From NCBI GenBank assembly GCA_030390025.1, contig JASTWF010000093.1, positions 992,001 to 1,056,000 on the forward strand: 64,000 bases of DNA, given 5' to 3'. The stretch comes from Squalus acanthias (taxonomy: Eukaryota). Positions 8,179 through 60,756 of this stretch are shown in pieces (within the stretch, counting starts at the first letter, position 1; every line of letters begins with the position of its first letter). The position numbers were made by a program, and so were the translations under genes. The notes under the pieces were generated by a model, which was given only the letters and a program-made list of their open reading frames with translations, made no database searches and was not told the origin of the DNA.

Positions 8179-8336
8179 TCACGTAATGCCGTATTCATTT
8201 TGTTTCTCTCCATTTGCCAGTGAAACACGTTTCTTGCACACGGCTATGACTAGAATTACAATTATAAATTCAATAGCAAGGACAGTGACTGCAAGCATCC
8301 AGCGATTTCTTGTAAGAACGTGATCAGTTTTCATTT
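8179..8336 (-). CDS. B7-family/CD276-like gene copy A, exon 4 (TM + tail: EMKTDHVLTRNRWMLAVTVLAIEFIIVILVIAVCKKRVSLANGEKQNEYGIT*); spliced CDS 849 nt, 282 aa
   Basis: Acceptor TTTTTTTTCCCACAG|, phase 1; hydrophobic stretch followed by CKKR stop-transfer; TGA at 8181-8179. Not in the ORF track; translated by hand. Confidence 0.85.
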
Positions 8337-8659
8337 CTGTGGGAAAAAAAAGGAAGAAAACTATTGATCATTACGGCAGTGGTTTCAGTGCTGGTTTGGT
8401 CTTCTATGCTAAATCAGCTAAAAAAAGCCCACACATTTACACAGCGCCTTTCACAACCCCAAAGCGCTTTACAGCCAATGAAGTACTTCAAGTGGTCACT
8501 GTTGTAATGCAGGAAACGCAGCAGTCAATTTGCACACAGCAAGCTCCCACAAACAGTAATTAGATAATGACCAGATAATCTGTTTTTTAAAAGTGATGTT
8601 GGTTGAAGGATAATAATAGTCAGGACACCAGGGAGAACTCCCCTGCTCTTCATAATAGT

Positions 8660-9299
8660 CATGATGCGGAGATGCCGGTGTTGGACTGGGGTGGACAAAA
8701 TTGAGAGGTCGCACAACACCAGGTTATAGTCCAACAGTTTTATTTGAAATCACAAGCTTTCGGAACTATCGCTCCTTCCTCAGGTGAAGTAAATTGGATA
8801 CAGAATCGTCAGAGCATATATAGATGGAAAAAAAAGCATGTGTACTTTACAATTGCAGACCAATAAATTAAATCATCCTGACTATCTGCCGAGGTGTGAT
8901 AAAGTTAATTAAGTCAGCCAGGAAGGTACCACATCAAAAGACATAGCAAGATACAACTGAGACAATGAGGTGAAGTCGCAGGGGTTCTAACGTGTCAAAA
9001 GTTAGAACGTTAGAACCCCTGCGACTTCACCTCATTGTCTCAGTTGTATCTTGCTATGTCTTTTGATGTGGTACCTTCCTGGCTGACTTAATTAACTTTA
9101 TCACACCTCGGCAGATAGTCAGGATGCTTTAATTTATTGGTCTGCAATTGTAAAGTACACATGCTTTTTTTTCCATCTATATATGCTCTGACGATTCTGT
9201 ATCCAATTTACTTCACCTGAGGAAGGAGCGATAGTTCCGAAAGCTTGTGATTTCAAATAAAACTGTTGGACTATAACCTGGTGTTGTGCGACCTCTCAA
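8660..9299. mobile_element. Non-coding Penelope family 1 insertion made of two inverted pLTRs (hairpin), 12-bp TSD CTTCATAATAGT
   Basis: TSD at 8648-8659 and 9300-9311; arms 8701-8993 and 9007-9299; empty site in copy C near 53932-53943. Confidence 0.9.
9213..9250 (+). ncRNA. Minimal hammerhead ribozyme motif (mirror copy at 8750-8787, minus strand)
   Basis: tcac-CTGAGGA-a-ggagc[gata]gttcc-GAAA-gc-TT-gtga. Confidence 0.7.
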
Positions 9300-9575
9300 C
9301 TTCATAATAGTGCCATGGGATCTTTTACATCCACCTGAGAGCAGACAGGGCCTCTGTTTAACATCTCATCTGAAAGGCGGCACCTCCGACAGTGCAGCAC
9401 TCCCTCAGTATTGTGCTGGAGTGTCAGCCTAGATTTTTGTGCTCAAGTCTCTGGAGTTGGGCTTGAACCCACGACCTTCTACCACTGATGCATGGCTGAC
9501 ACCTAAAGAGAGATATTAGGCAGGGTGACTAAAAGCTTGGTCAAAGAGGTGGATTTTAAGGAAAGTTTTAAAAAG

Positions 9576-9613
<38 letters not shown>
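9576..9613. repeat. (AG)n microsatellite (also ~54208-54247; not expanded in the right arm near 32307)
   Basis: Direct reading. Confidence 0.9.
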
Positions 9614-10369
9614 GTTTAGGGAGGGAATTCTGGAGCGCAAGCTATAGATGGCTGCCAGTGGCAGTAGGGAATTCACAAGATGCCAGAGTTTGAACAATTC
9701 AGGGGTCTCAGAGGGTTGTAGGGCTAGAGAAGTGTACAGAGATAAGGAGGGATGAGGCCACAAAGGGACTTAACCACAAGGATAAGAATTTTTAATTTGA
9801 GGCGTTGGTAACCAGGTGCTAATGTAGGCCAGCGAGCACAGGGGGAGGGTTAGCAGATCGTAGTGCAGGATAGGAGAAGGGCAGCAGAGATTTGGATGAG
9901 CAGAAGTTTACATAGCGTGGAGGGTACAATACAGCATAGAGAGAACTTCTTATATCCTCTCCAAGGAGCGAAGGAGACATTAAGGAGAGTCTTCCCAAAT
10001 ATGGGAGCAGAATCCAAGTCACAAAAGGACTCGAGCTATAGAGAGTTAAAGGTATTTGGTAAGAAGTGTTTGGCACAAACGAGGAAACAGCTTTTGAGCA
10101 GCCGAGCAATGCAGCAGCTCCATTTGTGGTCTTGGGAGATAGTGAGGCCAAGAACATTGATAAGTCAAGAGAAGTGTAGGCCCATGAAAGTTAAAAAGGT
10201 GCAGCGGTTTATACTTGTGGAACCAGAAAGAAACTGGAACAGAAGTTTCTGAAGAACTGAAAGAAGATTTCCTATACTTCAAATGGCATGGAGATCAAGA
10301 TGTCGTGATTCAGCATTGTATCGCAAGACAACTGGAGGTTATGAGTACTGAGTGTAGGACACAACTTAC

Positions 10370-10654
10370 CTACAGAAAGACCAAATGTTCGAGAAACTGA
10401 TTGGTGTAGAACATCATTTCTTAATCTGAATGTGTAGTTAGAACTCCTATTGGTGTCATTGATTTGCAAAATACTCTGCAGGGAGTATAGACCATCTCCA
10501 CTTTGTTGGTACGAAGTCTCAGACAGTGAAGAAATATCCTCATTTTCTTCATTGTACCAGGAAACAGTAGCCTCAGGGTAACCTTGGGACTCGAATCTGA
10601 ACACTGTCCCGGATGGTGTTAACTGAATAAAAAAGTCAGGTTCCTTGTAGTATG
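10370..10654 (-). CDS. B7-family/CD276-like gene copy A, exon 3 (IgC-like domain, cysteine-free)
   Basis: Acceptor TTTTTAATCTACAG|, donor GTAG|GTAAGT, 285 nt. YYKEP, GYPEATVSW, GLYSLQSIL, RNDVLHQ parallel CD276 YSKP, GYPEAEVFW, GLFDVHSIL, RNPVLQQ. Confidence 0.9.
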
Positions 10655-11242
10655 CTGTAGATTAAAAAAAGGGTCATTAGAAACAAGAAATAAACGTGAT
10701 AAAAATAATGCCAACTAGGAATTTTGTTCCAGTTAATAACTAATTGAATAATGCAATAAAAGCTTTAAATGATCAAAAACAACAAATCCAAGTACAAACA
10801 GAATAGTAGATATTGCTGTTTGTGATCAATTTGGAGATATTCAAATCATTGTACCAAGTGATCAAATTGAAGGTGAAAATCCCACAATATCCTGCTGGCA
10901 GCTGTTCAGCCAAAATCATACGTAACCCTTGATGGTAAATATCAGTGGGCTTTTCACCTGCGAGGCCATCACAGTTCAGCCCGATCCTGGAGCCGTCCAC
11001 AGTCAGGGCTTGCTGAATAGCAAACGGGAGTGCCAACCCTAACCGAGGTGTGTCGATTGCACCAATAGCACTGTCCCAGCGGAGAGGAGCTAAACCAGCA
11101 CAATCTGGGTATCAAACCTGGTCTGTATGGCTCAGGCACTCAATGGTGAGACTCACTGAGCCATCAGGGGAGGCCAAGAAGCATGACTTTAATTATTCAG
11201 AACTGACTGAGAACAAAAATGAAAACTGAAAGAAGCATGTAC

Positions 11243-11593
11243 CTGCAAATATTAGAGACACAATGCCCTGGCCATTTCCTTTTCCATTCCTGACAAAGCA
11301 CACATACTGTCCAGCATCCTCTGGTCTCACTCTGTCCAGCTTCACTGAAACGTTCCCTTGTTTTATCTTCTCTGGGAATAAGCTTGCCCTCCCCGAATAC
11401 CGAGGGCTTTGGCGACTCAGTTGCTCTTTTCCAGAATAATAATAAACAACTTCCTCCGTCTCGACACGGTGCCAACTGATGAACAGCAGATCCAGTGACG
11501 ATTCACCCTGAGCTGTAAAGCTGCAACTCAGCACCGTGTACTGGCCGTAGATAGCAGTCACTGGTGCTTCTGGGGTGTGGACTTGAAACTGAG
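11243..11593 (-). CDS. B7-family/CD276-like gene copy A, exon 2 (IgV domain)
   Basis: Acceptor TTCACAG|, donor GCAG|GTACAT, 351 nt, phase 1-1. V-set motifs LSC, W, RASLF, GNVSVKL, EDAGQYVC resemble the CD276/butyrophilin IgV. Confidence 0.92.
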
Positions 11594-11884
11594 CTGTGAA
11601 TTCAAACAAATAGATTAGTAACAGCATTGTTCCAAGAGATTTAATCTTAACTCTTCAGAACATTTTATTTTAAATGGATGATTAATACGAGATTTAATCT
11701 TGAACACAGGAAAGCACTAAGAAGTAATTATCCCCACAGCTGTATTTTCTCTTCTCCAGAAGGGTTGATATTTCCTGGGTTGATATTTTCTGTGATCTAT
11801 TGAAATAGAAAAAGTTTTGTTCCCTCACCTCACAAAATGGACATCAAAAAAAGCAACTGCAGCAACATGATCAGTAAACATCAC

Positions 11885-13436
11885 AAAATAATGGGACTAA
11901 AAGACGACAGGTCCCCTGGACCAGATGGCCTGCATCCCAGGGTCTTAAAAGAAGTGGCTGCAGAGATAGTGGATACATTGGTTGTAATCTACCAAAATTC
12001 CCTGGACTCTGGAGAGGTCCCAGCGGATTGGAAAACCGCAAATGTAAAACCCCTATTCAAGAAAGGAGGGAGACAGAAAGCAGGAAACTATAGACCAGTT
12101 AGCCTAACATCTGTCGTTGGGAAAATGCTGGCGTCCTTCATTAAGGAAGCATTAGCAGGGCATTTGGAAAATCAATGCAGTCAAGCAGAGTCAGCATGGT
12201 TTTATGAAAGGGAAATCATTTTTAACAAATTTGCTGGAGTTCTTTGAGGATGTAACGAGCAGGGTGGATAAGGGTGAGCCAGTGGATGTGGTGTATTTGG
12301 ATTTCCAGAAGGCATTCAATAAGGTGCCACATAAAAGGTTACTGCATAAGATAAGAGCGCACAGAGTTGGGGGTAATATATTAGCATGGATAGAGAATTA
12401 GTTAACTAACAGAAAACAGAGAGTCGGGATAAATGGGTCATTTTCCGGTTGGCAAACGCTAACTAGTGGGGTGCCACAGGGATCGGTGCTGGGGCCTCAA
12501 CTATTTACAATCTACATTAATGACTTGGATGAAGGGACCGAGTGTACTGTAGCTAAGTTTGCAGAAGATACAAAGATGGGTGGGAAAGTAAGTTGTGCAA
12601 AGGGATATAGACAGGCTAAGTGAGTGGGCAAACATTTGGCAGATGGAGTATAATGTGGGAAAGTGCAAGGTTATCCACTTTGCCAGGAAAAATAAAAAAG
12701 CTAGTTATTTTTTTAAATGGAGATTACAAAATGCTTCAGTTTAGAGGGACCTGGGGGTCCTTGTGCATGAAACACAAAAAGTTAGCATGCAGGTGCAGCA
12801 AGTAATCAAAAAGGCAAATGGAATGTTGGCCTTTATTGCAAGGGGGTTGGAGTATAAAAGCAGAGAAGTCCTGCTACAACTGTACAGGGTATTGGTGAGA
12901 CCACACCTTGAGTACTGCATACAGTTTTGGTCTCCTTATTTAAGGAAGGCTATACTTGCATTGGAGGCAGTTCAGAGACGATTCACACAGTTGATTCCAG
13001 AGATGAGGGGATTGACTTATGAATAAAGGTTGAGCCTATACTCATTGGAATTTAGATGAATGAGAGGTGATCTTATTGAAACATACAAGATACTGAGGGG
13101 GCTCGACAAGGTAGATGCAGAGAGGATGTTTCCCCTCATGGGGAAATCTAGAACTCCGGGGCACAGTTTCAGAATAAAGGGTCGCCCTTTTAGAACCGAG
13201 ATGAGGAGGAATTTCTTCTCTGAGGGTCGTAAATCTGTGGAATTCTCTGCCCCAGAGAGCCTCGGAGGCTGGGTCATTAAACACATTTAAGGTGGAGATA
13301 GACAGATTTTTACAAGATAAGGGAGTGAAGGGTTATGGGGAGCGGGCGGGGAAGTGGCTTTGAGCCCAATATCAGCCATGATCTTATTGAATGGCAGAGC
13401 AGGCTCGAGGGGCCAAGTGACCTATTCCTGCTCCTA
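11885..13436 (+). mobile_element. CR1 LINE, 5'-truncated degenerate RT and 3' UTR (tail resumes at 15696-15712)
   Basis: SPGPDGLHPRVLKE, NYRPVSLTS, YLDFQKAF, RPHLEYC, RGDLIE; frameshifts and stops. Confidence 0.92.
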
Positions 13437-15680
13437 CAAAAAGAAAATACTGCAGATGCTGGAAATCTGAAATAAAAACAGAAAATGCTGGAGATACTCA
13501 GCAGGTCAGGCAGCATCTGTGAAGAGAGAAACAGAGTTAACGTTTCAGGTCGATGACCTTTCGTCAGAACTGGAAGAAAGCAGGAAATGGAACATATTTT
13601 TAAGCAAGTGTAGCAGCTGGGAAAGGGGGGAGGGGATGAAAGAACAAAAGGGAAGGTCTGTGATAGGATAGAAGGCAGGAGAGGTTAAGAGACATTAAGA
13701 GATATTCAAGGCAAAAGGAGATGGTAATGGGACAGGTTAAGAAACAAAGGATGGCTCTAGATGAAGTGTAAATTGCACTGGCAGAATGAAAGACAGCTGC
13801 CATGTGGGGGAGAAGAAAAGACACAAAGGTGTGGATAAAAAATATATATAGGATAGGGGCTGAGGTTATGATCTGAAATTGTTGAACTCTATGTTGAGTC
13901 CAGAAGGCTGTAAAGTGCCTAATCGAAAGATGAGGTGCTGTTCCTCGAGCTTACGCTGAGCTTCAGTGGAACAATGCAAGAGGCCGAGGACGGTGAGGTC
14001 TGAGTGGGAGTGGAGCGGAGAATTAAAGTGACAGGCGACCGGAAGCTCGGGGTCCCCCTTACGGACTGACCGGAGGTGTTCCGCAAAGCGGTCACCCAAT
14101 CTGCGTTTGGTCTCCCCAATGTAGAGGAGACCGCATCGTGAGCAGCAAATACAGTATACTAAATTGCAAGAAGTACAAGTAAATCGCTGTTTCACCTGGA
14201 AGGGGTGTTTCGGGCCCTGGACAGTGGGAAGGGGGGAGGTATAAGGGCATGTGTTGCATCTCCTGCGCGTGCACGGGAAGGTGCTGGGTGAAGGGGAAGG
14301 GGTGCTGGGGGTGATAGAGGAGTGGACTAGGGTGTCTCGGAGGGAGCGGTCCCTACGGAATGCTGAAAGGGGAGGTGAGGGGAAGATGCGTTTGGTGGTG
14401 GGATCACGCTGGAGGTGGCGGAAATGGCACAGGATGATCCGTTGAATGTGGAGGCTGGTGGGGTGAAAGGTGAGGACAAGGGGAACTCTATCGTGGTTCC
14501 GGGAGGGAGGGGCAGGGGTGAGGGCAAAAGTGCGGGAGATAGAACGGACACAGTCGAGGGCCGTGTCAACTACGGTAGAGGGGAATCCTCGGTTGAGGAA
14601 AAAGGAAGACATGTCGGAAGCACTGGTATGGAAGGTGGCATCGTCGGAGCAGATACGGCGGAGACGGAGAAACTGGGAGAATGGAAGAGAGTCCTTACAG
14701 GAGGCGGGGTGGGAGGAAGTATAGTCCAGGTAGCTGTGGGAGTCAGTGGGCTTTTAGTGAATGTTGGTCAATAACCTATCCCCAGAGATGGAGATGGAGA
14801 AGTCGAGGAAGGGAAGAGTCGGAGATGGACCATGTGAAGGTGAGGGAAGGGTGGAAATTGGAGGCAAAGTGAATGAAATTGTCTAGTTTAGGGCGAGAGC
14901 AGGAAACGGCACCGATACAGTCATCAATGTACCGGAAAAAGAGGTGAGGGAGGGGACCCGAGTAGGACTGGAACAAAGAGTGTTCCACATATCCCACGAA
15001 AAGGCAGGCATAGCTAGGAGCCATGTGGGTACCCATAGCAACACCTTTGATTTGGAGGAAATGAGTGGAGTCAAAGGAGAAGTTGTTCAATGTGAGAACA
15101 AGTTCAGCTAGGCGGAGGAGGGTGCTGGTGGATGGGGACTGGTTGGGCCTCTGTTCAAGGAAGAAGCGGAGCGCAGTCAAGCCATCCTGGTGGGGGATGT
15201 TACCTGGCCTGCTGAGTTTTTCCAGCACTTTCTGTTGTTATTTCAGTTTTCCAGCATCTGCAGTATTTTGCTATTGTATTAGAGGTGAGGGGAAGATCTG
15301 TTTGGTGGTGGGATCACACTGGAGGTGGCGGAAATGGTGGAGGATGATCCATTGAATGTGGAGGCTGGTGGGGTGAAAGGTGAGGACAAGGGGAACTCTA
15401 TCGTGGTTCTGGGAGGGAGGGGCAGGGGTGAGGGCAGAAGTGCGGGAGATAGAACGGACACGGTCAAGGGCCGTGTCAACCACAGTAGAGGGGAATCCTC
15501 GGTTGAGGAAAAAGGAAGACATGTCGGAAGCACTGGTATTCCCAACCCCTACACTTGCTTAAAAATCTGTTCCATTTCCTGCTTTTTTCCAGTTCTGACG
15601 AAAGGTCATCGACCTGATACGTTAACTCTGTTTCTCTCTTCACAGATGCTGCCTGACCTGCTGAGTATCTCCAGCATTTT
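13437..15680 (-). mobile_element. Penelope-like retroelement family 2, truncated and rearranged, 15-bp TSD CTATTCCTGCTCCTA, in intron 1 of copy A
   Basis: GVAMG, RYIDD, YKPTD, CxxC and YIGET...RFAEH (GIY-YIG); TSD at 13422-13436 and 15681-15695; empty site in copy B near 28015-28031. Confidence 0.92.
13535..13571 (-). ncRNA. Minimal hammerhead ribozyme motif of Penelope family 2 (duplicate at 58169-58205; GAAA->GATA mutant at 15591-15627 +)
   Basis: agtt-CTGACGA-a-aggtc[atc]gacct-GAAA-cg-TT-aact. Confidence 0.7.
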
Positions 15681-16067
15681 CTATTCCTGCTCCTATTTCT
15701 TATGTTCTTATGTAAATAGACAGGGGCTGTTTCTTTGAAATATTCTTTTCAGCTCCATGAACAATATTTACTTGGGAATTATCCACCTTGCCCATTAAAA
15801 TTACCCAACATCACAAGTGAAACCCTTCGGTCCCAGACCTGAAACGTTAACTCTGTTTCTCTCTCCACGGATGCTGCCTGACCTGCTGAGTATTTACAGC
15901 ATTTTCTGTTGTTATTTCAGATTTGCAGCATCTGCAGTATTTTGCTATTACAAGTGAAACTACTGTTATTGCTTTGGGCCATTGCTCAGTGGTGAAAAGA
16001 CCACCTGAAACTGTGTAGATCGTTCATTCAAATGTGTGCAAGGAAACAGTTACATTTAAAGACTTAC

Positions 16068-16122
16068 CTTGAGCCAAACCGAATTCAACAGCCACCAAAA
16101 CAGCGAGCAGACTTCTCACCAT
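16068..16122 (-). CDS. B7-family/CD276-like gene copy A, exon 1 (signal peptide MVRSLLAVLVAVEFGLAQ)
   Basis: ATG at 16122 in AGTATGG context; 18 mostly hydrophobic codons + 1 nt; donor CAAG|GTAAGT; phase 1 matches the IgV exon; homologous exon in copies B and C. Confidence 0.85.
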
Positions 16123-16491
16123 ACTTTGCTCTCCTCGACAGCTGTCAAAACAAGACAAGACGACCACCAGTGAAAATAATTTCTTTATCGGTTTCCACAG
16201 CTGCAAAAGACCCGCATCTTATGGAGGATTCCGCCGGCACTCGGGGCAGAGCTCGCTGACCGAAATCTAAACCCTCGGGGCTCCGCTCAAGTGGGCGTCG
16301 CCCGCAGCCCGCTCTCTTTCATAGTCCCTGCTGTTACATCATTTACGGATTAGACAGTAAGAAAGCCCCAGACACCGCCCCGCGAGCCAGCGAATCAGAG
16401 ACTGGTTAGAGCTTTTCCTCGGCAGTCCCGCCTCCCCAGGGCTGCCAGACCATGCCACAGACACCGCAGCAGCAGCAACAACCTAGTGGTT

Positions 16492-16701
16492 GCTGTTTTT
16501 AAGAGTTTATTTTTTACTGTGATGGAATGAGAAACAGCCTTACAGTAATTTGTTGATCTATTTGTAAAATGTTATTATTGCATTTATATTGTTAATTATA
16601 AGGCTTTATTGTTATTGTGATCAATGAATGTAATGGTTTATTATGTAATTGATGAGTTGTATAAGTACTATTCTTGAATAAAAAGATTAATAAGAAAAAA
16701 A
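16492..16701 (+). mobile_element. Short AT-rich poly(A)-tailed retro-insertion with 15-bp TSD AACAACCTAGTGGTT (duplicate at ~61126-61335)
   Basis: TSD at 16477-16491 and 16702-16716; AATAAA then an A-run. Confidence 0.75.
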
Positions 16702-17390
16702 AACAACCTAGTGGTTAAAAGAAAAAAAACCTTTTCTTTTGAGAATTTCCCTCATCTGGAAGTGGAAATATTTCATTTTAACACAGCACATTTAAGTTGC
16801 ACAACCCATAAAGACATTTGACTGTGCAACTAAAATCATGTAAATTATCTTGGCAATTGGCTGCACTGAAATCAGTCAGGCATTACTAGTTAGTGTACAG
16901 TTATTGAAGTGCCATTGACTAAAGGCAAACTAATTGAAGATTCTTTTGCTTGTGGTTAAAATGTCATAGTGTACTGATCCTGTCAGCAAAAGTAACTGGT
17001 GTTTTGCTGCAGTGTAACTTAAATAGCCATAAAAAGTGTCTTTATGGAGGATATTTGTGGGAAACTACAAGGATATGAAGATGTTTACAGCTTTTTGTAT
17101 TACCTGAAATAGTTATGGTTCCTCACTGCAACAGTTTGATAACCAGGATATATGTAATAAAATAACTGAATGCACATCCACAAGACTTGCACCAAAATGT
17201 CAGACTTTCTGTGAAAGTGCTCTTTATACAAAACATCAGCAGCAACAACTTGCATTTATACACCGCCTTAAATGTCGTAAAACGTCCCAAGGTGCTTCAC
17301 AGGAGCGTTATGAGACATAAAATTGACACCGAGCCACATGAGGAGAAATTAGGGCAGGTGACCAAAAGCTTGGTCAAAGAGGTAGGTTTT

Positions 17391-17870
17391 AAAGAAAGAA
17401 AAACTTGCATTTATATCGCACCTTTCACAACCACCAGACATCCCAAAGCGCTTTACAGCCAATGAAGTACTTTTTGAAGTGGAGTCACTGTGGCAATGTG
17501 GGAAAAACGGCAGCCAATTTGCGCACAGCAAGCTCCCACAAACAGCAATGCGAAAATGAACAGATAATCTGTTTTTTTTTAAAGTGATGCCGGTCGAGGG
17601 ATATATATTTGCCCAGGACACCAGGGAGAACTCCACAACCTTCTTCAAAATATTGCCATGGGATCTTTTACATCCACAGGAGAAAGCAGACGGGACCTCA
17701 GTTTAACGTCTCACGCAAAAGACAGCACCTCCAACAGTGCAGCACTCCCTCAGCACTGCACTGGAGCGTCAGCCTAGATTTATGTGCTCAAGTCCCTGGA
17801 ATGGGACTATGAACCCACAACCTTCTGACTCAGAGGTGAGTGTGCTGCCCACTGAGCCACAGCTGACACT
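17391..17870 (-). mobile_element. Full-length Deu-domain tRNA SINE (SacSINE1-like); paralogs at 25808-26282 (+) and 62025-62504 (-)
   Basis: tRNA-like head GGCTCAGTGG..., core GATGTAAAAGATCCCATGGC...GTTTGTGGGAGCTTGCTGTG, tail AAATGCAAGT-TTTC; family name is from memory of the consensus. Confidence 0.75.
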
Positions 17871-21380: not shown

Positions 21381-21419
21381 AGTTAGGGACGGGCAATAAA
21401 TGCTGTCCTTGCCAGACTG

Positions 21420-27312: not shown

Positions 27313-27359
27313 CTGGAGTTGCAAATTGTCCGGGGCGTTCCCAGCGGTCAGCCTAATGA

Positions 27360-39470: not shown

Positions 39471-39479
39471 ATGCTATAA

Positions 39480-50686: not shown

Positions 50687-51079
50687 TGTGAGCAGATTGC
50701 CTCTTTACTGTGTGGAACATAGGAACAGGAGGAGGCCATTCAGCCCCTCGAGCCTGTTCCGCCATTCAATGAGATCATGGCTGATCTGTGACTGAAAATG
50801 TTGGTAGTGAGGATCCCAGTGTTTTTCTTTTCCATGATTAGCTGCTGTGAGTTCTACACCATGTATTGTTAGAAATTGGGATTCATGGAGTTATATCGAG
50901 TCTACAGCACAGAAACAGGCCATTCGGCCCAACTGCTCTATGCCGGCTTTTATGCTCCATGCGAGACTCCTCCCACCCAGAGGATTTGAAGAATTATATT
51001 CATCACTGCGTGAGGAAATGATTGTATGTTGGCCTCAGTCTGTGCTGCTTCAGGAGACAGATTTAACTGCAAAATGTAT

Positions 51080-53032
51080 TTGGGGTGGGCGCGGCTGCAG
51101 TTCCAAGAACCGAGGCTTGGGGGTGGGCGCGGCTGCAGTTCCACGAACCGGGGCTTGGGGGTGGGCGCGGCTGCAGTTCCACGAACCGGGGCTTGGGGGT
51201 GGGCGCGGCTGCAGTTCCACGAACCGGGGCTTGGGGGTGGGCGCGGCTGCAGTTCCACGAACCGGGGCTTGGGGGTGGGCGCGGCTGCGGTTCCACGAAC
51301 CGGGGCCTGGGGGGCGGGCGGGTCCGCGGTGCCACGCCCCTGGGCGCGGGGGCGGGCGGGTCCGCGGTGCTATGCCCCGGGGCTTGGGGGCGGGCGGGTC
51401 CGCGGTGCCATGCCACGGGGCGCGGGCGCAGCTGCGGTACCATGCCACGGGGCGCGGGCGCGTCCGCGGTGCCATGCCCCGGGGCGCGGGGCGGACGCGG
51501 TGCCATGCCCCGGGGCGCGCACGTCCGCGGTGCCATGCCCCGGGGCGCGGGGGCGGGCGCGTCTGCGGTGCCATGCCCCGGGGCGCGGGGGCGGGCGCGG
51601 TGCCATGCCCCGGGGCACGGGGCGGGTGCGTCCGTGGTGCCATGCCCCGGGGCGCGGGGGCGGCTGCTGTGCCATGCTCCGGGGCGCGGGAGCGGGCGTT
51701 GTGCCATGCCCCGGGGCGCGGGAGCGGGCGCGGCCGCGGTGCCATGCCGAGGGGGCGGGCGCGGCCGCAGTGCCATGCCGCGGGGCGCGGGGGCGGCCGC
51801 GGTGCCATGCCCCGGGGCGTGGGGGCGGGCGCGGCCACAGTGCCATGCCCCGGGGCGCGGGGGCGGGCGCGGCCGCAGTGCCATGCCCCAGGGCGCGGTG
51901 GCAGGCGCGGCCGCAGTGCCATGCCCCGTGGCGCGGGGGCGGTGCCATGCCCCGGGGCGCGGGGGCGGGCGCGTCTGCGGTGCAATGCCCCGGGGCGCGG
52001 GGGCGGGCGCGGTGCCATGCCCCGGGGCACGGGGCGGGTGCGTCCGCGGTGCCATGCCCCGGGGCGCGGGGGCGGCTGCTGTGCCATGCTCCGGGGCGCG
52101 GGAGCGGGCATGGTGCCATGCCCTGGGCGCGGGAGCGGGCGCGGCCGCGGTGCCATGCCGAGGGGGGCGGGCGCGGTGCCATGCCCCGGGGCGCGGGGGC
52201 GGGCGCGGCCACAGTGCCATGCCCCGGGGCGTGGGGGCGGGTGCGGCCGCAGTGCCATGCCCCGGGGCGCGGTGGCAGGCGCGGCCGCAGTGCCATGCCC
52301 CGTGGCGCGGGGGCGGTGCCATGCCCCGGGGCACGGGGGCGGGCGCGGCCGTAGTGCCATGCCCCGGGGCGGGCTCGGCCGCAGTGCCATGCCCCGGGGC
52401 GCGGGTGCGGTTCCATGCCCCGTGGCGGGCGCGGCCGCAGTGCCATGCCCCGGGGCGCGGGGGCTGTGCCATGCCCCGGGGCGCGGGAGTGGGCGCGGCC
52501 GCAGTGCCATGCCCCGGGTGCGCAAGTGCCATGCCGCGGGGGCGGGCGCGGCCGCAGTGCCATGCCCCGCGGGCGGGCGCGGCCGCTGTGCCATGTCCCG
52601 GGAGCGGGCGCAGCCGCAGTGCCATGCCCCGGGTGCGCAAGTGCCATGCCCCGGGGGTGGGCGCGGCCGCAGTGCCATGCCCCGGGGGAGGGCGAGGCCG
52701 CAGTGCCATGCCCCGGGGGCGGGCGCGGCCGCAGTGCCATGCCCTGGGGGCGGGAACGGCCGCAGTACCATGCGCCGGGGCCGGGCGCGGCCGCAGTGCC
52801 ATGCCCCGAGGCGGGGGGGCGAGCGCGGCCGCAGTGCCATGCCCCGGGGCGCGGCCGCAGTGCCATGCCATGGGGCGCGGGCGCGGGCGCGGCCGCAGTG
52901 CCATGCCCTGGGGCGCGGTGGCGGCGGCCGCAGTGCCATGCCCCCGGGCGCGGCCACAGTGCCATGCCCCCGGGCGCGGGGGCGGCCGCAGTGCCATGCC
53001 CCGGGGCTCGGCCGCAGTTCCATGAACCAGGG
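51080..53032. repeat. Same GC-rich minisatellite, shorter array (~1.95 kb)
   Basis: Same units and flanks as 3708-7752. Confidence 0.97.
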
Positions 53033-53462
53033 CACACGCACACACACCACCCCCCCACCCCCCCCGGGAGAAGGCCCGAAGACATTCACAGTGCAAGTGT
53101 TAAACTGAAGGAGGACAGGGTGCTAAAATAACTCAACCAATTCTTGGAGACAATGACAAAAGAACAAAATGGCATTAAAAACAAAGCTTTATTACATTAA
53201 CCTGTCCTGATCCAGCAGAAGATGGACAAAAAAAACACTATTGTATTAAATAAAGAGTTTGGAAGTTACAAATGAGAAAAGGGACCAATCAGATGGCACT
53301 TCTTATTCTGCGTCTTGATATTTAGTAGTGAGGGTTAAGGAGACATGTCCACATTTGCACAAGGCTGCGAATAGCAGAAACCCACTATGTTGCGACTGTA
53401 AATATCGGTTTTCATGGCTGAAGGGGCAGCGTCCAATCACATGCATTTTCTTGAATGATCCA

Positions 53463-53620
53463 TCACGTAATGCCGTATTCATTTTGTTTCTCTCCATTTG
53501 CCAGTGAAACACGTTTCTTGCACACGGCTATGACTAGAATTACAATTATAAATTCAATAGCAAGGACAGTGACTGCAAGCATCCAGCGATTTCTTGTAAG
53601 AACGTGATCAGTTTTCATTT
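53463..53620 (-). CDS. B7-family/CD276-like gene copy C, exon 4 (TM + tail ...NEYGIT*)
   Basis: Matches copy A exon 4; acceptor at 53622-53621, stop at 53465-53463. Confidence 0.85.
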
Positions 53621-54207
53621 CTGTGGGAAAAAAAAGGAAGAAAACTATTGATCATTACGGCAGTGGTTTCAGTGCTGGTTTGGTCTTCTATGCTAAATCA
53701 GCTAAAAAAAGCCCACACATTTACACAGCGCCTTTCACAACCCCAAAGCGCTTTACAGCCAATGAAGTACTTCAAGTGGTCACTGTTGTAATGCAGGAAA
53801 CGCAGCAGTCAATTTGCACACAGCAAGCTCCCACAAACAGTAATTAGATAATGACCAGATAATCTGTTTTTTAAAAGTGATGTTGGTTGAAGGATAATAA
53901 TAGTCAGGACACCAGGGAGAACTCCCCTGCTCTTCATAATAGTGCCATGGGATCTTTTACATCCACCTGAGAGCAGACAGGGCCTCTGTTTAACATCTCA
54001 TCTGAAAGGCGGCACCTCCGACAGTGCAGCACTCCCTCAGTATTGTGCTGGAGTGTCAGCCTAGATTTTTGTGCTCAAGTCTCTGGAGTTGGGCTTGAAC
54101 CCACGACCTTCTACCACTGATGCATGGCTGACACCTAAAGAGAGATATTAGGCAGGGTGACTAAAAGCTTGGTCAAAGAGGTGGATTTTAAGGAAAGTTT
54201 TAAAAAG

Positions 54208-54247
<40 letters not shown>

Positions 54248-55003
54248 GTTTAGGGAGGGAATTCTGGAGCGCAAGCTATAGATGGCTGCCAGTGGCAGTA
54301 GGGAATTCACAAGATGCCAGAGTTTGAACAATTCAGGGGTCTCAGAGGGTTGTAGGGCTAGAGAAGTGTACAGAGATAAGGAGGGACGAGGCCACAAAGG
54401 GACTTAACCACAAGGATAAGAATTTTTAATTTGAGGCGTTGGTAACCAGGTGCTAATGTAGGCCAGCGAGCACAGGGGGAGGGTTAGCAGATCGTAGTGC
54501 AGGATAGGAGAAGGGCAGCAGAGATTTGGATGAGCAGAAGTTTACATAGCGTGGAGGGTACAATACAGCATAGAGAGAACTTCTTATATCCTCTCCAAGG
54601 AGCGAAGGAGACATTAAGGAGAGTCTTCCCAAATATGGGAGCAGAATCCAAGTCACAAAAGGACTCGAGCTATAGAGAGTTAAAGGTATTTGGTAAGAAG
54701 TGTTTGGCACAAACGAGGAAACAGCTTTTGAGCAGCCGAGCAATGCAGCAGCTCCATTTGTGGTCTTGGGAGATAGTGAGGCCAAGAACATTGATAAGTC
54801 AAGAGAAGTGTAGGCCCATGAAAGTTAAAAAGGTGCAGCGGTTTATACTTGTGGAACCAGAAAGAAACTGGAACAGAAGTTTCTGAAGAACTGAAAGAAG
54901 ATTTCCTTTACTTCAAATGGCATGGAGATCAAGATGTCGTGATTCAGCATTGTATCGCAAGACAACTGGAGGTTATGAGTACTGAGTGTAGGACACAACT
55001 TAC

Positions 55004-55288
55004 CTACAGAAAGACCAAATGTTCGAGAAACTGATTGGTGTAGAACATCATTTCTTAATCTGAATGTGTAGTTAGAACTCCTATTGGTGTCATTGATTTG
55101 CAGAATACTCTGCAGGGAGTATAGACCATCTCCACTTTGTTGGTACGAAGTCTCAGACAGTGAAGAAATATCCTCATTTTCTTCATTGTACCAGGAAACA
55201 GTAGCCTCAGGGTAACCTTGGGACTCGAATCTGAACACTGTCCCGGATGGTGTTAACTGAATAAAAAAGTCAGGTTCCTTGTAGTATG
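55004..55288 (-). CDS. B7-family/CD276-like gene copy C, exon 3 (IgC-like, cysteine-free)
   Basis: Intact 285-nt exon; protein identical to copy A as far as I can read. Confidence 0.9.
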
Positions 55289-55876
55289 CTGTAGATTAAA
55301 AAAAGGATCATTAGAAACAAGAAATAAACTTGATAAAAATAATGCCAACTAGGAATTTTGTTCCAGTTAATAACTAATTGAAAATTGCAATAAAAGCTTT
55401 AAATGATCAAAAACAACAAATCCAAGTACAAACAGAATAGTAGATATTGCTGTTTGTGATCAATTTGGAGATATTCAAATCATTGTACCAAGTGATCAAA
55501 TTGAAGGTGAAAATCCCACAATATCCTGCTGGCAGCTGTTCAGCCAAAATCATACATAACCCTTGATGGTAAATATCAGTGGGCTTTTCACCTGCGAGGC
55601 CATCACAGTTCAGCCCGATCCTGGAGCCGTCCACAGGCAGGGCTTGCTGAATAGCAAACGGGAGTGCCAACCCTAACCGAGGTGTGTCGATTGCACCAAT
55701 AGCACTGCTCCAGCGGAGAGGAGCTAAACCAGCACAATCTGGGTATCAAACCTGGTCTGTATGGCTCAGGCACTCAATGGTGAGACTCACTGAGCCATCA
55801 GGGGAGGCCAAGAAGCATGACTTTAATTTTTCAGAACTGACTGAGAACAAAAATGAAAACTGAAAGAAGCATGTAC

Positions 55877-56227
55877 CTGCAAATATTAGAGACACAATGC
55901 CCTGGCCATTTCCTTTTCCGTTCCTGACAAAGCACACATACTGTCCAGCATCCTCTGGTCTCACTCTGTCCAGCTTCACTGAAACGTTCCCTTGTTTTAA
56001 CTCCTCTGGGAATAAGCTTGTCCTCCCCGAATACCGAGGGCTTTGGCGACTCAGTTGCTCTTTTCCAGAATAATAATAAACAACTTCCTCCGTCTCGACA
56101 CGGTGCCAACTGATGAACAGCAGATCCAGTGACGATTCACCCTGAGCTGTAAAGCTGCAACTCAGCACCGTGTACTGGCCGTAGACAGCAGTCACTGGTG
56201 CTTCTGGGGTGTGAACTTGAAACTGAG
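55877..56227 (-). CDS. B7-family/CD276-like gene copy C, exon 2 (IgV)
   Basis: Same splice sites as copy A; 4 amino-acid differences from A. Confidence 0.92.
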
Positions 56228-56518
56228 CTGTGAATTCAAACAAATAGATTAGTAACAGCATTGTTCCAAGAGATTTAATCTTAACTCTTCAGAATATTTT
56301 ATTTTAAATGGATGATTAATACGAGATTTAATCTTGAACACAGGAAAGCACTAAGAAGTAATTATCCCCACAGCTGTATTTTCTCTTCTCCAGAAGGGTT
56401 GATATTTCCTGGGTTGATATTTTCTGTGATCTATTGAAATAGAAAAAGTTTTGTTCCCTCACCTCACAAAATGGACATCAAAAAAAGCAACTGCAGCAAC
56501 ATGATCAGTAAACACCAC

Positions 56519-58070
56519 AAAATAATGGGACTAAAAGACGACAGGTCCCCTGGACCAGATGGCCTGCATCCCAGGGTCTTAAAAGAAGTGGCTGCAGAGA
56601 TAGTGGATGCATTGGTTGCAATCTACCAAAATTCCCTGGACTCTGGAGAGGTCCCAGCGGATTGGAAAACCACAAATGTAACACCCCTATTTAAGAAAGG
56701 AGGGAGACAGAAAGCAGGAAACTATAGACCAGTTAGCCTAACATCTGTCGTTGGGAAAATGCTGGCGTCCTTCATTAAGGAAGCATTAGCAGGGCATTTG
56801 GAAAATCAATGCAGTCAAGCAGAGTCAGCATGGTTTTATGAAAGGGAAATCATTTTTAACAAATTTGCTGGAGTTTATTGAGGATGTAACGAGCAGGGTG
56901 GATAAGGGTGAGCCAGTGGATGTGGTGTATTTGGATTTCCAGAAGGCATTCAATAAGGTGCCACATAAAAGGTTACTGCATAAGATAAGAGCGCACAGAG
57001 TTGGGGGTAATATATTAGCATGGATAGAGAATTAGTTAACTAACAGAAAACAGAGAGTCGGGATAAATGGGTCATTTTCCAGTTGGCAAACGCTAACTAG
57101 TGGGGTGCCACAGGGATCGGTGCTGGGGCCTCAACTATTTACAATCTACATTAATGACTTGGATGAAGGGACCGAGTGTACTGTAGCTAAGTTTGCAGAA
57201 GATACAAAGATGGGTGGGAAAGTAAGTTGTGCAAAGGGATATAGACAGGCTAAGTGAGTGGGCAAACATTTGGCAGATGGAGTATAATGTGGGAAAGTGC
57301 AAGGTTATCCACTTTGGCAGGAAAAATAAAAAAGCTAGTTATTTTTTTAAATGGAGATTACAAAATGCTTCAGTTTAGAGGGACCTGGGGGTCCTTGTGC
57401 ATGAAACACAAAAAGTTAGCATGCAGGTGCAGCAAGTAATCAAAAAGGCAAATGGAATGTTGGCCTTTATTACAAGGGGGTTGGAGTATAAAAGCAGAGA
57501 AGTCCTGCTACAACTGTACAGGGTATTGGTGAGACCACACCTTGAGTACTGCATACAGTTTTGGTCTCCTTATTTAAGGAAGGCTATACTTGCATTGGAG
57601 GCAGTTCAGAGACGATTCACACAGTTGATTCCAGAGATGAGGGGATTGACTTATGAATAAAGGTTGAGCCTATACTCATTGGAATTTAGATGAATGAGAG
57701 GTGATCTTATTGAAACATACAAGATACTGAGGGGGCTCGACAAGGTAGATGCAGAGAGGATGTTTCCCCTCGTGGGGAAATCTAGAACTCAGGGGCACAG
57801 TTTCAGAATAAAGGGTCGCCCTTTTAGAACCGAGATGAGGAGGAATTTCTTCTCTGAGGGTCGTAAATCTGTGGAATTCTCTGCCCCAGAGAGCCTCGGA
57901 GGCTGGGTCATTAAACACATTTAAGGTGGAGATAGACAGATTTTTACAAGATAAGGGAGTGAAGGGTTATGGGGAGCGGGCGGGGAAGTGGCTTTGAGCC
58001 CAATATCAGCCATGATCTTATTGAATGGCAGAGCAGGCTCGAATGGCCAAGTGGCCTATTCCTGCTCCTA
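56519..58070 (+). mobile_element. CR1 LINE, duplicate in intron 1 of gene C
   Basis: Offset 44634 from 11885-13436. Confidence 0.92.
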
Positions 58071-60314
58071 CAAAAAGAAAATACTGCAGATGCTGGAAAT
58101 CTGAAATAAAAACAGAAAATGCTGGAGATACTCAGCAGGTCAGGCAGCATCTGTGAAGAGAGAAACAGAGTTAACGTTTCAGGTCGATGACCTTTCGTCA
58201 GAACTGGAAAAAAGCAGGAAATGGAACATATTTTTAAGCAAGTGTAGCAGCTGGGAAAGGGGGGAGGGGATGAAAGAACAAAAGGGAAGGTCTGTGATAG
58301 GATAGAAGGCAGGAGAGGTTAAGAGACATTAAGAGATATTCAAGGCAAAAGGAGATGGTAATGGGACAGGTTAAGAAACAAAGGATGGCTCTAGATGAAG
58401 TGTAAATTGCACTGGCAGAATGAAAGACAGCTGCCATGTGGGGGAGAAGAAAAGACAAAAAGGTGTGGATAAAAAATATATATAGGATAGGGGCTGAGGT
58501 TATGATCTGAAATTGTTGAACTCTACGTTGAGTCCAGAAGGCTGTAAAGTGCCTAATCGAAAGATGAGGTGCTGTTCCTCGAGCTTACGCTGAGCTTCAG
58601 TGGAACAATGCAAGAGGCCGAGGACGGTGAGGTCTGAGTGGGAGTGGAGCAGAGAATTAAAGTGACAGGCGACCAGTAGCTCAGGGTCCCCCTTACGGAC
58701 TGACCGGAGGTGTTCCGCAAAGCGGTCACCCAATCTGCGTTTGGTCTCCCCAATGTAGAGGAGACCGCATCGTGAGCAGCAAATACAGTATACTAAATTG
58801 CAAGAAGTACAAGTAAATCGCTGTTTCACCTGGAAGGGGTGTTTCGGGCCCTGGACAGTGGGAAGGGGGGAGGTATAAGGGCATGTGTTGCATCTCCTGC
58901 GCGTGCACGGGAAGGTGCTGGGTGAAGGGGAAGGGGTGCTGGGGGTGATAGAGGAGTGGACTAGGGTGTCTCGGAGGGAGCGGTCCCTACGGAATGCTGA
59001 AAGGGGAGGTGAGGGGAAGATGCGTTTGGTGGTGGGATCACGCTGGAGGTGGCGGAAATGGCACAGGATGATCCGTTGAATGTGGAGGCTGGTGGGGTGA
59101 AAGGTGAGGACAAGGGGAACTCTATCGTGGTTCCGGGAGGGAGGGGCAGGGGTGAGGGCAAAAGTGCGGGAGATAGAACGGACACAGTCGAGGGCCGTGT
59201 CAACTACGGTAGAGGGGAATCCTCGGTTGAGGAAAAAGGAAGACATGTCGGAAGCACTGGTATGGAAGGTGGCATCGTCGGAGCAGATACGGCGGAGACG
59301 GAGAAACTGGGAGAATGGAAGAGAGTCCTTACAGGAGGCGGGGTGGGAGGAAGTATAGTCCAGGTAGCTGTGGGAGTCAGTGGGCTTGTAGTGAATGTTG
59401 GTCAATAACCTATCCCCAGAGATGGAGATGGAGAAGTCGAGGAAGGGAAGAGTCGGAGATGGACCATGTGAAGGTGAGGGAAGGGTGGAAATTGGAGGCA
59501 AAGTGAATGAAATTGTCTAGTTTAGGGCGAGAGCAGGAAACGGCACCGATACAGTCATCAATGTACCGGAAAAAGAGGTGAGGGAGGGGACCCGAGTAGG
59601 ACTGGAACAAAGAGTGTTCCACATATCCCACGAAAAGGCAGGCATAGCTAGGAGCCATGTGGGTACCCATAGCAACACCTTTGATTTGGAGGAAATGAGT
59701 GGAGTCAAAGGAGAAGTTGTTCAATGTGAGAACAAGTTCAGCTAGGCGGAGGAGGGTGCTGGTGGATGGGGACTGGTTGGGCCTCTGTTCAAGGAAGAAG
59801 CGGAGCGCAGTCAAGCCATCCTGGTGGGGGATGTTACCTGGCCTGCTGAGTTTTTCCAGCACTTTCTGTTGTTATTTCAGTTTTCCAGCATCTGCAGTAT
59901 TTTGCTATTGTATTAGAGGTGAGGGGAAGATCTGTTTGGTGGTGGGATCACACTGGAGGTGGCGGAAATGGTGGAGGATGATCCATTGAATGTGGAGGCT
60001 GGTGGGGTGAAAGGTGAGGACAAGGGGAACTCTATCGTGGTTCTGGGAGGGAGGGGCAGGGGTGAGGGCAGAAGTGCGGGAGATAGAACGGACACGGTCA
60101 AGGGCCGTGTCAACCACAGTAGAGGGGAATCCTCGGTTGAGGAAAAAGGAAGACATGTCGGAAGCACTGGTATTCCCAACCCCTACACTTGCTTAAAAAT
60201 CTGTTCCATTTCCTGCTTTTTTCCAGTTCTGACGAAAGGTCATCGACCTGATACGTTAACTCTGTTTCTCTCTTCACAGATGCTGCCTGACCTGCTGAGT
60301 ATCTCCAGCATTTT
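58071..60314 (-). mobile_element. Penelope-like family 2 (duplicate, intron 1 of copy C)
   Basis: 333-aa ORF 58500..59501 with RT thumb and GIY-YIG; offset 44634. Confidence 0.92.
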
Positions 60315-60701
60315 CTATTCCTGCTCCTATTTCTTATGTTCTTATGTAAATAGACAGGGGCTGTTTCTTTGAAATATTCTTTTCAGCTCCATGAACAATA
60401 TTTACTTGGGAATTATCCACCTTGCCCATTAAAATTACCCAACATCACAAGTGAAACCCTTCGGTCCCAGACCTGAAACGTTAACTCTGTTTCTCTCTCC
60501 ACGGATGCTGCCTGACCTGCTGAGTATTTCCAGCATTTTCTGTTGTTATTTCAGATTTGCAGCATCTGCAGTATTTTGCTATTACAAGTGAAACTACTGT
60601 TATTGCTTTGGGCCATTGCTCAGTGGTGAAAAGACCACCTGAAACTGTGTAGATCGTTCATTCAAATGTGTGCAAGGAAACAGTTACATTTAAAGACTTA
60701 C

Positions 60702-60756
60702 CTTGAGCCAAACCGAATTCAACAGCCACCAAAACAGCGAGCAGACTTCTCACCAT
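60702..60756 (-). CDS. B7-family/CD276-like gene copy C, exon 1 (signal peptide)
   Basis: Matches copy A exon 1 at offset +44634. Confidence 0.85.

What the first reader, a model, noticed from the sequence alone, without database searches (positions are those of the whole stretch)
8179..60756. Expanding cluster of diversified B7/CD276-like genes: three paralogs in 64 kb with different predicted outputs
Seen: three copies of a SP-IgV-IgC-TM gene with canonical phase-1 introns. A and C are intact (282 aa); B is altered in exon 3, TM and tail. Established: this exon layout and the motifs are those of B7-family/butyrophilin-like immune ligands, and CD276 is single-copy in mammals. Inference: a young, lineage-specific, probably copy-number-variable B7-like immune family in a cartilaginous fish, rather than the true CD276 ortholog.
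Basis: partly seen in the sequence, partly recalled or inferred. Interest (0 to 1): 0.78.

Follow-up and report, generated by a model that had tools for sequence, protein, structure and literature searches.

The report
Duplicated shark B7 gene lacking disulfide
This is a recently triplicated copy of an old fish immune-surface gene of the B7 type: it is not the true CD276, its second antibody-like domain has lost the usual disulfide bond, and one of the three copies is damaged by an inserted mobile element.

Summary
The three SP-IgV-IgC-TM copies are real. A and C encode 282 aa. B has a 442-bp SINE-like insert in exon 3, lacks a transmembrane Glu and has a shorter tail. The copies are young (A-C 0.5%, A-B 3-13%) and group together in the tree. 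The gene itself is old: orthologs annotated 'CD276 antigen-like' occur across sharks, rays and chimaera (IgC 81-88% identical in sharks). It belongs to a clade that also reaches lungfish, sturgeon, bichir, bowfin and teleosts and is separate from true CD276 (AU p=7e-6).

- The IgC lacks both canonical cysteines (Phe instead) yet models as a B7 IgC; none of 84 clade rows keeps the pair.
- The TM Glu is kept in 17 of 17 orthologs.
- B can still splice in frame, by skipping exon 3 (a form annotated in two orthologs) or through a cryptic acceptor.
- A fourth, orphan TM exon lies at 40469-40611.
- The Ig core is more alike between copies than the flanks, suggesting gene conversion.

Expression, copy number and ligand are untested. 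A and C could be haplotype duplicates (about 20-25%).

The parts
16068..16122 (-). Copy A exon 1, signal peptide
11243..11593 (-). Copy A exon 2, IgV with canonical Cys-Trp-Cys; one-residue deletion in the family's conserved C' motif, shared by A, B and C
10370..10654 (-). Copy A exon 3, IgC with no cysteine (Phe at both canonical positions)
8179..8336 (-). Copy A exon 4, TM with Glu253 and 18-residue tail, stop; AATAAA at about 7905-7910
8660..9311 (.). Insertion private to A in intron 3: about 640-bp near-perfect palindrome made from the terminal repeat of the element at 1008-3314, with a 12-bp target-site duplication
13437..15695 (.). 2259-bp insertion in intron 1 shared by A and C (58071-60329) and absent from B; the C copy has a weak GIY-YIG hit (Penelope-like; label recalled)
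27592..27646 (+). Copy B exon 1; TATAAAA-type motif 213 nt upstream (A and C have TATGAAA)
29876..30226 (+). Copy B exon 2, intact IgV (8 nonsynonymous, 4 synonymous changes versus A)
30812..31538 (+). Copy B exon 3, interrupted after 5 nt by a 442-bp SINE-like insert (about 30817-31258; V-SINE/HE1 label recalled); in-frame cryptic acceptor at 31242, out-of-frame one at 31265
33069..33208 (+). Copy B exon 4, TM without Glu (E253A, T248N), tail shortened by a 2-bp deletion
40469..40611 (+). Orphan fourth TM/tail exon of the family: phase-1 acceptor, open 46-aa frame, TM Glu kept, conserved Trp changed to Arg; 66-67% DNA identity to exon 4; no matching V or C exon found in 33640-47362
60702..60756 (-). 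Copy C exon 1
55877..56227 (-). Copy C exon 2, IgV
55004..55288 (-). Copy C exon 3, cysteine-free IgC; model pLDDT 93.7, best fold matches BTN1A1, B7-H3 and ICOSL IgC
53463..53620 (-). Copy C exon 4, TM with Glu and tail
1..20716 (.). Duplicated block A (runs off the window start)
23242..35270 (.). Duplicated block B, inverted and head-to-head with A across a 2.5-kb LINE-derived spacer
47363..63075 (.). Duplicated block C, direct copy of A (0.49-0.53% substitutions); ends where a TG-starting, LTR-like insertion begins at 63076

Best explanation
What it is: recent segmental duplicates of one member ('alpha') of an old fish B7 subfamily that databases label 'CD276 antigen-like'. The subfamily is separate from CD276 and its IgC lacks the disulfide (shown by tree and alignment).

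How A and C most likely work: as type I surface ligands. The IgV engages a lymphocyte IgSF receptor, probably of the CD28/PD-1 type (inferred from family membership). The IgC is a stalk with Phe-Phe where the disulfide would be (fold predicted; the packing is inferred). The invariant TM Glu, with a short non-conserved tail, binds an intramembrane partner, most plausibly an ITAM adaptor as in CD300C, giving back-signalling or controlled surface assembly (inferred).

History: an inverted duplication made B. A direct duplication of a unit of at least 45 kb later made A and C. Sequence exchange has kept the IgV/IgC core alike while the promoter and TM/3' end diverged (pattern shown, conversion inferred).

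B is a degrading copy: it cannot make the normal protein by normal splicing and has lost the Glu. If transcribed, it most likely yields the in-frame IgV-TM form (181 aa) or a cryptic-acceptor form (280 aa), both unable to use the Glu.
For: Gene models.

Orthologs: 13 hits, all elasmobranch, the best nine 81-88% identical in IgC; chimaera ortholog P0036.

Tree: true CD276 (8 rows, sturgeon to mammals) is one clade at 100/99 without the window proteins. Forcing them together is rejected, p-AU 7.3e-6. Acipenser has both kinds.

Cysteines: 0 of 84 clade rows have the IgC pair, 77 of 84 have no Cys in either segment, and 10 of 10 CD276, BTN and turtle rows have both. IgC model pLDDT 93.7 with seven strands; Z 13.9, 13.6 and 13.4 to BTN1A1, B7-H3 and ICOSL, rmsd 1.7-2.1 over 88-93 residues.

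TM Glu: in 17 of 17 alpha orthologs; an acidic TM residue in 1 of 29 other family members. Precedent: CD300C E191 is needed for FcR-gamma signalling (PMC12447643, passages).

IgC-skipped isoforms are annotated in Pristiophorus (P0056, 187 aa) and Mobula (P0061, 181 aa).

A-B divergence is 101/3048 in the core versus 97/1056 in the 3' end plus promoter, p=7e-13. Catshark duplicates show the same split.
Against: No expression, splice-junction or read-depth evidence was obtained. No receptor or adaptor binding was tested, and an acidic TM residue can serve other ends such as homo-oligomerisation or ER quality control.

The tree lacked VTCN1, HHLA2, PD-L1, ICOSL and any shark CD276 (none among the 120 of 422 hits listed), so the subfamily's true sister is unresolved. 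Four turtle-type rows keep both cysteines and sit at an unresolved position near Cys-free shark rows, so a single loss is not proven.

No A-B conversion tract free of B-private sites was seen, and the runs test on informative sites was not significant after collapsing neighbours (p=0.13; longest run p=0.004).

B's IgC still shows low pN/pS (0.11; 2N/5S) and B has a good TATA motif and poly(A) signal, which argues against long decay. The V versus C contrast in N/S is not significant (p=0.32).

A-C divergence of 0.5% is compatible with two alleles.
Confidence: 0.62

Rival explanations
1. Paired-molecule system: B is a maintained, functional decoy. Conversion keeps its IgV matched to A and C, while loss of the TM Glu and forced exon-3 skipping give a short IgV-TM molecule that binds the same receptor without adaptor coupling. 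B may also splice to the orphan Glu-bearing TM exon as an alternative last exon.
For: The core is 3.3% diverged against 8-13% at the ends. Catshark a/b duplicates have near-identical IgV within species (0/99 and 3/99) while their TM exons group across species (3-5/36 versus 11-12/36). The skip form is in frame and annotated in two orthologs. B exons 1-2 join the orphan exon in frame, 182 aa. CD300A/C is a precedent (PMC12447643 passages).
Against: B has no inhibitory motif. Both catshark duplicates keep the Glu. Three lesions in one copy are what relaxed selection gives. The orphan exon has lost a Trp kept in 18 of 19 relatives and lies about 7 kb beyond B's own poly(A) signal. No transcript evidence.
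Confidence: 0.2
2. A and C are the two haplotypes of one locus written in tandem by the assembler, so the species has only one intact gene plus B.
For: A-C substitutions are 53/10020 in the gene block and 18/3709 in the flank. There are long identical tracts (0/870 at the 3' end) and uneven spread (chi2 p=0.001). The other differences are two presence/absence insertions and a VNTR length change, which are typical of alleles.
Against: The window has no N, so there is no scaffold gap between the blocks. The longest repeats in the spacer (1.7-kb VNTR, about 3.5-kb LINE) are short enough for long reads to span (inference). B shows the locus really duplicates, and catsharks carry a real tandem pair.
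Confidence: 0.22
3. The genes are fast-evolving shark co-orthologs of CD276 (or of another named B7 member such as the teleost 'B7H5') that lost the IgC disulfide.
For: CD276 is the best solved-structure match by sequence for both domains and for the family profile (178 bits versus 149 for PD-L1, 114 for BTN1A1, 106 for ICOSL). One chimaera member is named 'CD276 antigen'. A teleost 'B7H5' is mentioned in PMC11599192 (passage); I could not compare it.
Against: AU test rejects grouping with CD276. Sturgeons and teleosts have both a true CD276 and Cys-free members. Identity to CD276 is only 35-40% in IgV and 20-24% in IgC. CD276's TM motif was found in 4 of the first 236 stored proteins, all CD276-type.
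Confidence: 0.12

Closest known systems
RefSeq 'CD276 antigen-like' proteins of sharks, rays and chimaera (e.g. XP_067862765 Heptranchias, XP_067867851 Heterodontus, UPI00398F6CCB Pristiophorus)
   Same: Orthologs: IgV 66-79% and IgC 72-86% identical in elasmobranchs, same Cys-free IgC, same TM Glu.
   Different: Mostly one alpha gene per species in my hits (two in catsharks) against three here. The window copies share a one-residue deletion and Tyr-to-Ser change in the C' motif. The names are automatic; I found no functional study.
CD276 / B7-H3
   Same: SP-IgV-IgC-TM layout; best match among solved structures by sequence; IgC fold Z 13.6.
   Different: Separate clade; keeps the IgC disulfide; different conserved TM; the window IgC has a shorter A-B turn.
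Butyrophilins (BTN1A1, BTN2A1, BTN3A)
   Same: V-C ectodomain fold; Pfam C2-set_3; clustered paralogs.
   Different: No B30.2 domain (the stop is in the TM exon); lower sequence scores; separate in trees; BTNs keep the IgC disulfide.
CD300C / CD300A paired receptors (working analogy only; PMC12447643, passages read)
   Same: TM Glu with a short tail; ectodomain homogenised by conversion while signalling ends diverge; frequent decay of one copy.
   Different: Different IgSF family with a single IgV; no ITIM-bearing partner here; adaptor binding not shown.

Membership tests
Extended B7/butyrophilin family | Signal peptide, IgV, IgC and TM on separate exons with phase-1 introns | tested here: met
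Extended B7/butyrophilin family | IgV with canonical Cys-Trp-Cys and B7-type sequence | tested here: met
Extended B7/butyrophilin family | Membrane-proximal domain with B7-type IgC fold | tested here: met
   model pLDDT 93.7; best Z 13.9 BTN1A1, 13.6 B7-H3, 13.4 ICOSL
Extended B7/butyrophilin family | B-F strand disulfide in the IgC | tested here: not met
   Phe at both positions; 0 of 84 clade rows have the pair. Hence filed as a variant.
Extended B7/butyrophilin family | Binds a CD28-family or other lymphocyte receptor and modulates activation | not testable with these tools
   no ligand data
CD276 ortholog | Groups with vertebrate CD276 | tested here: not met
   (p-AU 7.3e-6); no shark CD276 row was available
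CD276 ortholog | Conserved CD276 TM motif and IgC cysteines | tested here: not met
CD276 ortholog | Conserved synteny | not testable with these tools
   no genome held; no flanking host gene seen in the window
Butyrophilin (strict) | Cytoplasmic B30.2 domain | tested here: not met
   stop inside the TM exon, AATAAA 269-288 nt later; no Pfam hit on exon 4
Teleost 'B7H5' (Hansen et al. 2009) | Orthology to the published sequences | not testable with these tools
   seen only as a passage and reference in PMC11599192
Adaptor-coupled receptor of CD300C type | Conserved acidic TM residue and short tail without a conserved motif | tested here: met
   17 of 17 orthologs; tails not conserved
Adaptor-coupled receptor of CD300C type | Association with an ITAM adaptor | not testable with these tools
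   needs co-immunoprecipitation
Paired receptors | Ectodomains homogenised while signalling ends diverge | tested here: inconclusive
   pattern present; no clean conversion tract
Paired receptors | Inhibitory partner with ITIM | tested here: not met
   B's tail has no tyrosine
   100/98
   no read-depth data obtained

The most novel reading that the evidence does not exclude
Jawed fishes have an uncharacterised B7 subfamily, with no mammal among my hits, marked by a disulfide-free IgC. One branch has kept a TM glutamate from chimaeras to sharks and rays and signals back through an ITAM adaptor. In this shark it is turning into a paired system: gene conversion keeps the ligand-binding IgV matched, A and C signal, and SINE-forced exon skipping plus Glu loss turn B into a short decoy that may switch to an alternative Glu-bearing last exon. 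These could be ligands for the orphan fish CD28-family receptors.
Probability: 0.15. Interest if true: 0.8.

Novelty: new variant of a known kind. Interest (0 to 1): 0.5.

Why it matters
The triplication alone is ordinary birth-and-death of immune genes. The useful result is that many fish 'CD276 antigen-like' annotations are not CD276 but a separate, old B7 clade with two testable features: an IgC without a disulfide and, in the window's branch, an invariant TM Glu. Fish have extra CD28-family receptors (CD28HL1/2, CD28X; PMC11599192, passages), and this clade is a candidate ligand set (inference). The A/C versus B contrast offers a natural mutant for testing the Glu and the IgC-skipped isoform.

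Tried and rejected
- Whole-genome search: no genome is held, so synteny, further copies and the unit boundaries could not be seen.
- Sequencing runs: no RNA holder listed (21 runs listed, 20 hold part of the stretch, 7 hold half of its words or more). No reads were laid, so expression, splice form and depth remain open, and these shares are not used as evidence.
- Shark CD276: not among the 120 of 422 hits listed.
- Rfam at gathering threshold: 0 hits in the window.
- V or C exons for the orphan TM exon: none by tblastn with 83 family proteins, blastn or nhmmer in 33640-47362.
- Positive selection on IgV: pN/pS 0.60, not above 1, counts tiny; rejected as unsupported.
- Recent whole-tract conversion from B into A or C: not seen.
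- Tail tyrosine of A/C as a motif: not conserved in orthologs.
- Literature: none of the searches listed a paper describing this clade or its Cys-free IgC (listings only; top 20-30 shown where more matched). Flajnik 2012 is not held and Hansen 2009 was seen only as a reference, so prior description is not excluded.
- Earlier scan notes: nothing by sequence, words or nearby place; the genome-wide list (8 of 88 shown) was about other loci.
- No complex prediction was run.
- Scripts crashed at their last step; that step was completed.
Full report
Verdict. The window holds three young copies of a B7-type gene that is not CD276. The gene is not a young lineage-specific invention: it is the local copy of a conserved chondrichthyan gene in an old fish B7 clade whose IgC has no disulfide. 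Expression, copy number and ligand were not tested.

Observation. Self-comparison shows three blocks: A (1-20716), B (23242-35270, inverted, head-to-head with A) and C (47363-63075, direct copy of A); the window has no N. Each holds four coding exons with GT-AG, phase-1 introns. A and C encode 282 aa and differ at I33V, A88T, K94E and I95L, all in the IgV, plus three synonymous sites. B has a 442-bp insertion five bases into exon 3, T248N and E253A in the TM, and a 2-bp deletion that ends the tail seven residues early. I read the insert as a shark V-SINE/HE1-type element; that label is recalled, and one search gave only listings on the class. Exon 2 matches V-set (E 2e-13) and exon 3 the BTN-like C2-set_3 (E 5e-8). 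All copies have AATAAA 269-288 nt after the stop.

Relatives. The IgC exon found 13 proteins among 76 candidates, all from sharks and rays; 12 are named 'CD276 antigen-like' and one is a hypothetical protein, and the best nine are 81-88% identical. A profile search added chimaera, lungfish, sturgeon, paddlefish, eel and catfish proteins (70 hits); cluster look-ups added bowfin and bichir. The chondrichthyan proteins fall into four groups, alpha (the window's), alpha', beta and gamma. Equal contig lengths imply that they share one chromosome per species, for example three in Heptranchias and four in Mustelus; adjacency was not seen. Alpha includes a chimaera protein (98/97).

Not CD276. In a 43-row IQ-TREE tree, eight CD276 rows from sturgeon, teleosts, a bird and mammals form a clade (100/99) without the window proteins, and A, B and C form their own clade (100/98) inside the shark alpha group. 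Forcing alpha with CD276 costs 50.7 log units, p-AU 7.3e-6; I ran this test after seeing the trees. Limits: no shark CD276 was among the 120 of 422 hits listed, and VTCN1, HHLA2, PD-L1 and ICOSL were not in the tree. Among solved structures CD276 is still the nearest by sequence (178 bits against 149 for PD-L1, 114 for BTN1A1 and 106 for ICOSL), which explains the database names.

Cysteine-free IgC. Aligned with human CD276, both canonical IgC cysteines are Phe. I selected 100 proteins, dropped 4 for short matches and 2 for truncated IgC. Of the 94 left, 84 (including the three window models) lack the pair: 77 have no Cys in either segment and 7 have one. The other 10 (3 CD276, 3 BTN-type, 4 turtle-type) have both. 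I drew that group of 10 after seeing the alignment. The turtle-type rows sit at an unresolved place near two Cys-free shark rows, so a single loss is likely but not proven. The window's IgC models with pLDDT 93.7 and seven strands. Its best matches among 48,161 chains are BTN1A1 (Z 13.9, rmsd 1.8, 92 aligned), B7-H3 (13.6, 2.1, 93) and ICOSL (13.4, 1.7, 88), which are tied. The full-length Pristiophorus ortholog models at pLDDT 92.7 and matches BTN, B7-H3 and PD-L1 ectodomains.

TM glutamate. A and C carry Glu253 mid-helix. All 17 alpha orthologs with a TM have it, chimaera included (P0008 lacks a TM exon and was left out); 1 of 29 other family members has an acidic TM residue. Tails are not conserved. 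Human CD300C is the precedent: short tail, TM Glu191, needed for signalling through FcR-gamma (PMC12447643, passages). Adaptor coupling here is inference.

Copy B. Normal splicing reads into the insert and stops at 140 aa. Of seven AG sites tested in the insert's 3' part and the start of the exon body, three are in frame. The one at 31242 has a pyrimidine tract like the native acceptor's (12/16 against 13/16) and gives 280 aa; the one at 31265 (13/16) is out of frame. Skipping exon 3 gives an in-frame 181-aa IgV-TM protein, the form annotated as isoform X2 in Pristiophorus (P0056) and Mobula (P0061); I did not see the RNA support for those models. Signs of decay: three lesions, including the Glu kept in all 17 orthologs. 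Signs against long decay: IgC pN/pS 0.11 (2N/5S), an intact IgV, a TATAAAA motif and a poly(A) signal. The N/S contrast between V and C is not significant (p=0.32).

Duplication history. A-C substitutions are 53/10020 in the gene block and 18/3709 in the flank. A has a private 640-bp palindrome with a 12-bp target-site duplication; C has a private LTR-like insertion from 63076. A and C share a 2259-bp intron-1 insertion that B lacks, so B split first. A-B divergence is 3.3% across the V/C core and its introns (101/3048) but 8.1% at the 3' end and 13% in the promoter (together 97/1056; p=7e-13). A-C differences show the opposite pattern (33/3067 against 0/1146; p=4e-5). In two catshark species the duplicate pair has nearly identical IgV within species (0/99 and 3/99; 2-3/99 between species) while TM exons group by paralog (3-5/36 against 11-12/36). 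This fits conversion of the ectodomain, as reported for CD300A/C (PMC12447643, passages). Against it, no tract free of B-private sites was found and the collapsed runs test gave p=0.13 (longest run p=0.004). A and C may be haplotypes: 0.5% with indel differences fits alleles, while the absence of a gap and the short spacer repeats argue for a real tandem. I put false duplication at about 0.22.

Orphan exon. A fourth TM/tail exon lies at 40469-40611 on B's strand. It has a strong phase-1 acceptor, an open 46-aa frame and the TM Glu, and is 66-67% identical to exon 4 in DNA; it was first found by the alpha' paralog P0025. A Trp kept in 18 of 19 relatives is Arg here, and no V or C exon for it was found in 33640-47362. 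It is most simply the relic of an older paralog; B exons 1-2 could join it in frame (182 aa).

Mechanism. Shown: structure, orthology, Cys loss, Glu conservation, lesions in B and the divergence pattern. From family knowledge: the IgV binds a lymphocyte receptor and the IgC is a stalk. Inferred: the Glu recruits an intramembrane partner, B is decaying but may give a non-coupling IgV-TM form, and conversion homogenises the core. Confidence 0.62; functional decoy pair 0.2; A/C haplotypes 0.22 (partly compatible with the first); named-B7 ortholog 0.12.

Literature. Eight searches (listings) showed no description of this clade or its IgC. Read as passages: PMC3964593, PMC11599192, PMC12151841, 10.1101/2021.06.11.448072, PMC4810170, PMC12447643, PMC12841164, PMC6795676; PMC13262535 as passages plus section 10, which says CD276 is present in all gnathostomes and that B7 paralogs are expanded in turtles and Cladistia. 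No supplements were read; those of PMC11599192 and PMC13262535 may list these genes. Flajnik 2012 and Hansen 2009 could not be read, and the teleost 'B7H5' may be this clade.

Score. The triplication is ordinary. The disulfide-free, Glu-bearing B7 subfamily is a new variant of a known kind, present in databases under a misleading name. Interest 0.5.

Noticed in passing
window 40469-40611 (+): Orphan TM/tail exon of the same family. Its tail contains Y-I-S-M, a YxxM (PI3K-binding type; motif recalled) not present in the nearest relative's tail, so possibly chance.
   Followed up: partly
window 8660-9311: Near-perfect 606-bp palindrome (98%) built from the terminal repeat of the RT element at 1008-3314, inserted in a SINE with a 12-bp target-site duplication; absent from B and C.
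   Followed up: partly
window 1008-3314 and 48380-50686: RT-encoding element (weak RVT_1) bounded by about 340-bp inverted repeats; Penelope-like by recall.
   Followed up: partly
window 3710-7753 and 51082-53035: Very GC- and CpG-rich minisatellite (31-38-bp units, up to 84% GC) about 430 bp after the stop of A and C; 4.0 kb versus 1.95 kb; absent behind B.
   Followed up: no
window 63076-64000: Insertion starting with TG, private to block C; probably the LTR of a retroelement. Only its edge is in the window.
   Followed up: no
window 37773-39471: 29-bp tandem repeat, 59 copies, 93% matches.
   Followed up: no
window 42409-45471 (+): Nearly intact LINE in two ORF pieces (471 and 485 aa; RVT_1 E=2e-27), RTE-like by recall, with a short related copy at 39536-39958.
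   Followed up: partly
window 26428-27360 versus 16344-17245: B's upstream region, from about 230 bp before the ATG, is non-homologous to that of A and C, so regulation may differ.
   Followed up: partly
exon 2 of A, B and C: All three copies share a one-residue deletion plus Tyr-to-Ser in the C' strand motif, removing a Ser that is invariant in the 67-sequence family alignment; it may alter the receptor-binding face.
   Followed up: partly
P0003, P0020, P0014, P0021 (catsharks): An independent duplicate pair of the same gene, with IgV nearly identical within species and TM exons grouping across species.
   Followed up: yes
P0182, P0216 (sharks, other chromosomes); P0071-P0075 (turtles): A further Cys-free shark paralog elsewhere in the genome, and a turtle group that keeps both IgC cysteines; their places in the tree are unresolved.
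   Followed up: partly
10.1101/2021.06.11.448072 (passage): A bowfin CD276-like gene is reported among NITR genes near runx1 and DONSON; a synteny lead if it belongs to this clade (not checked).
   Followed up: no
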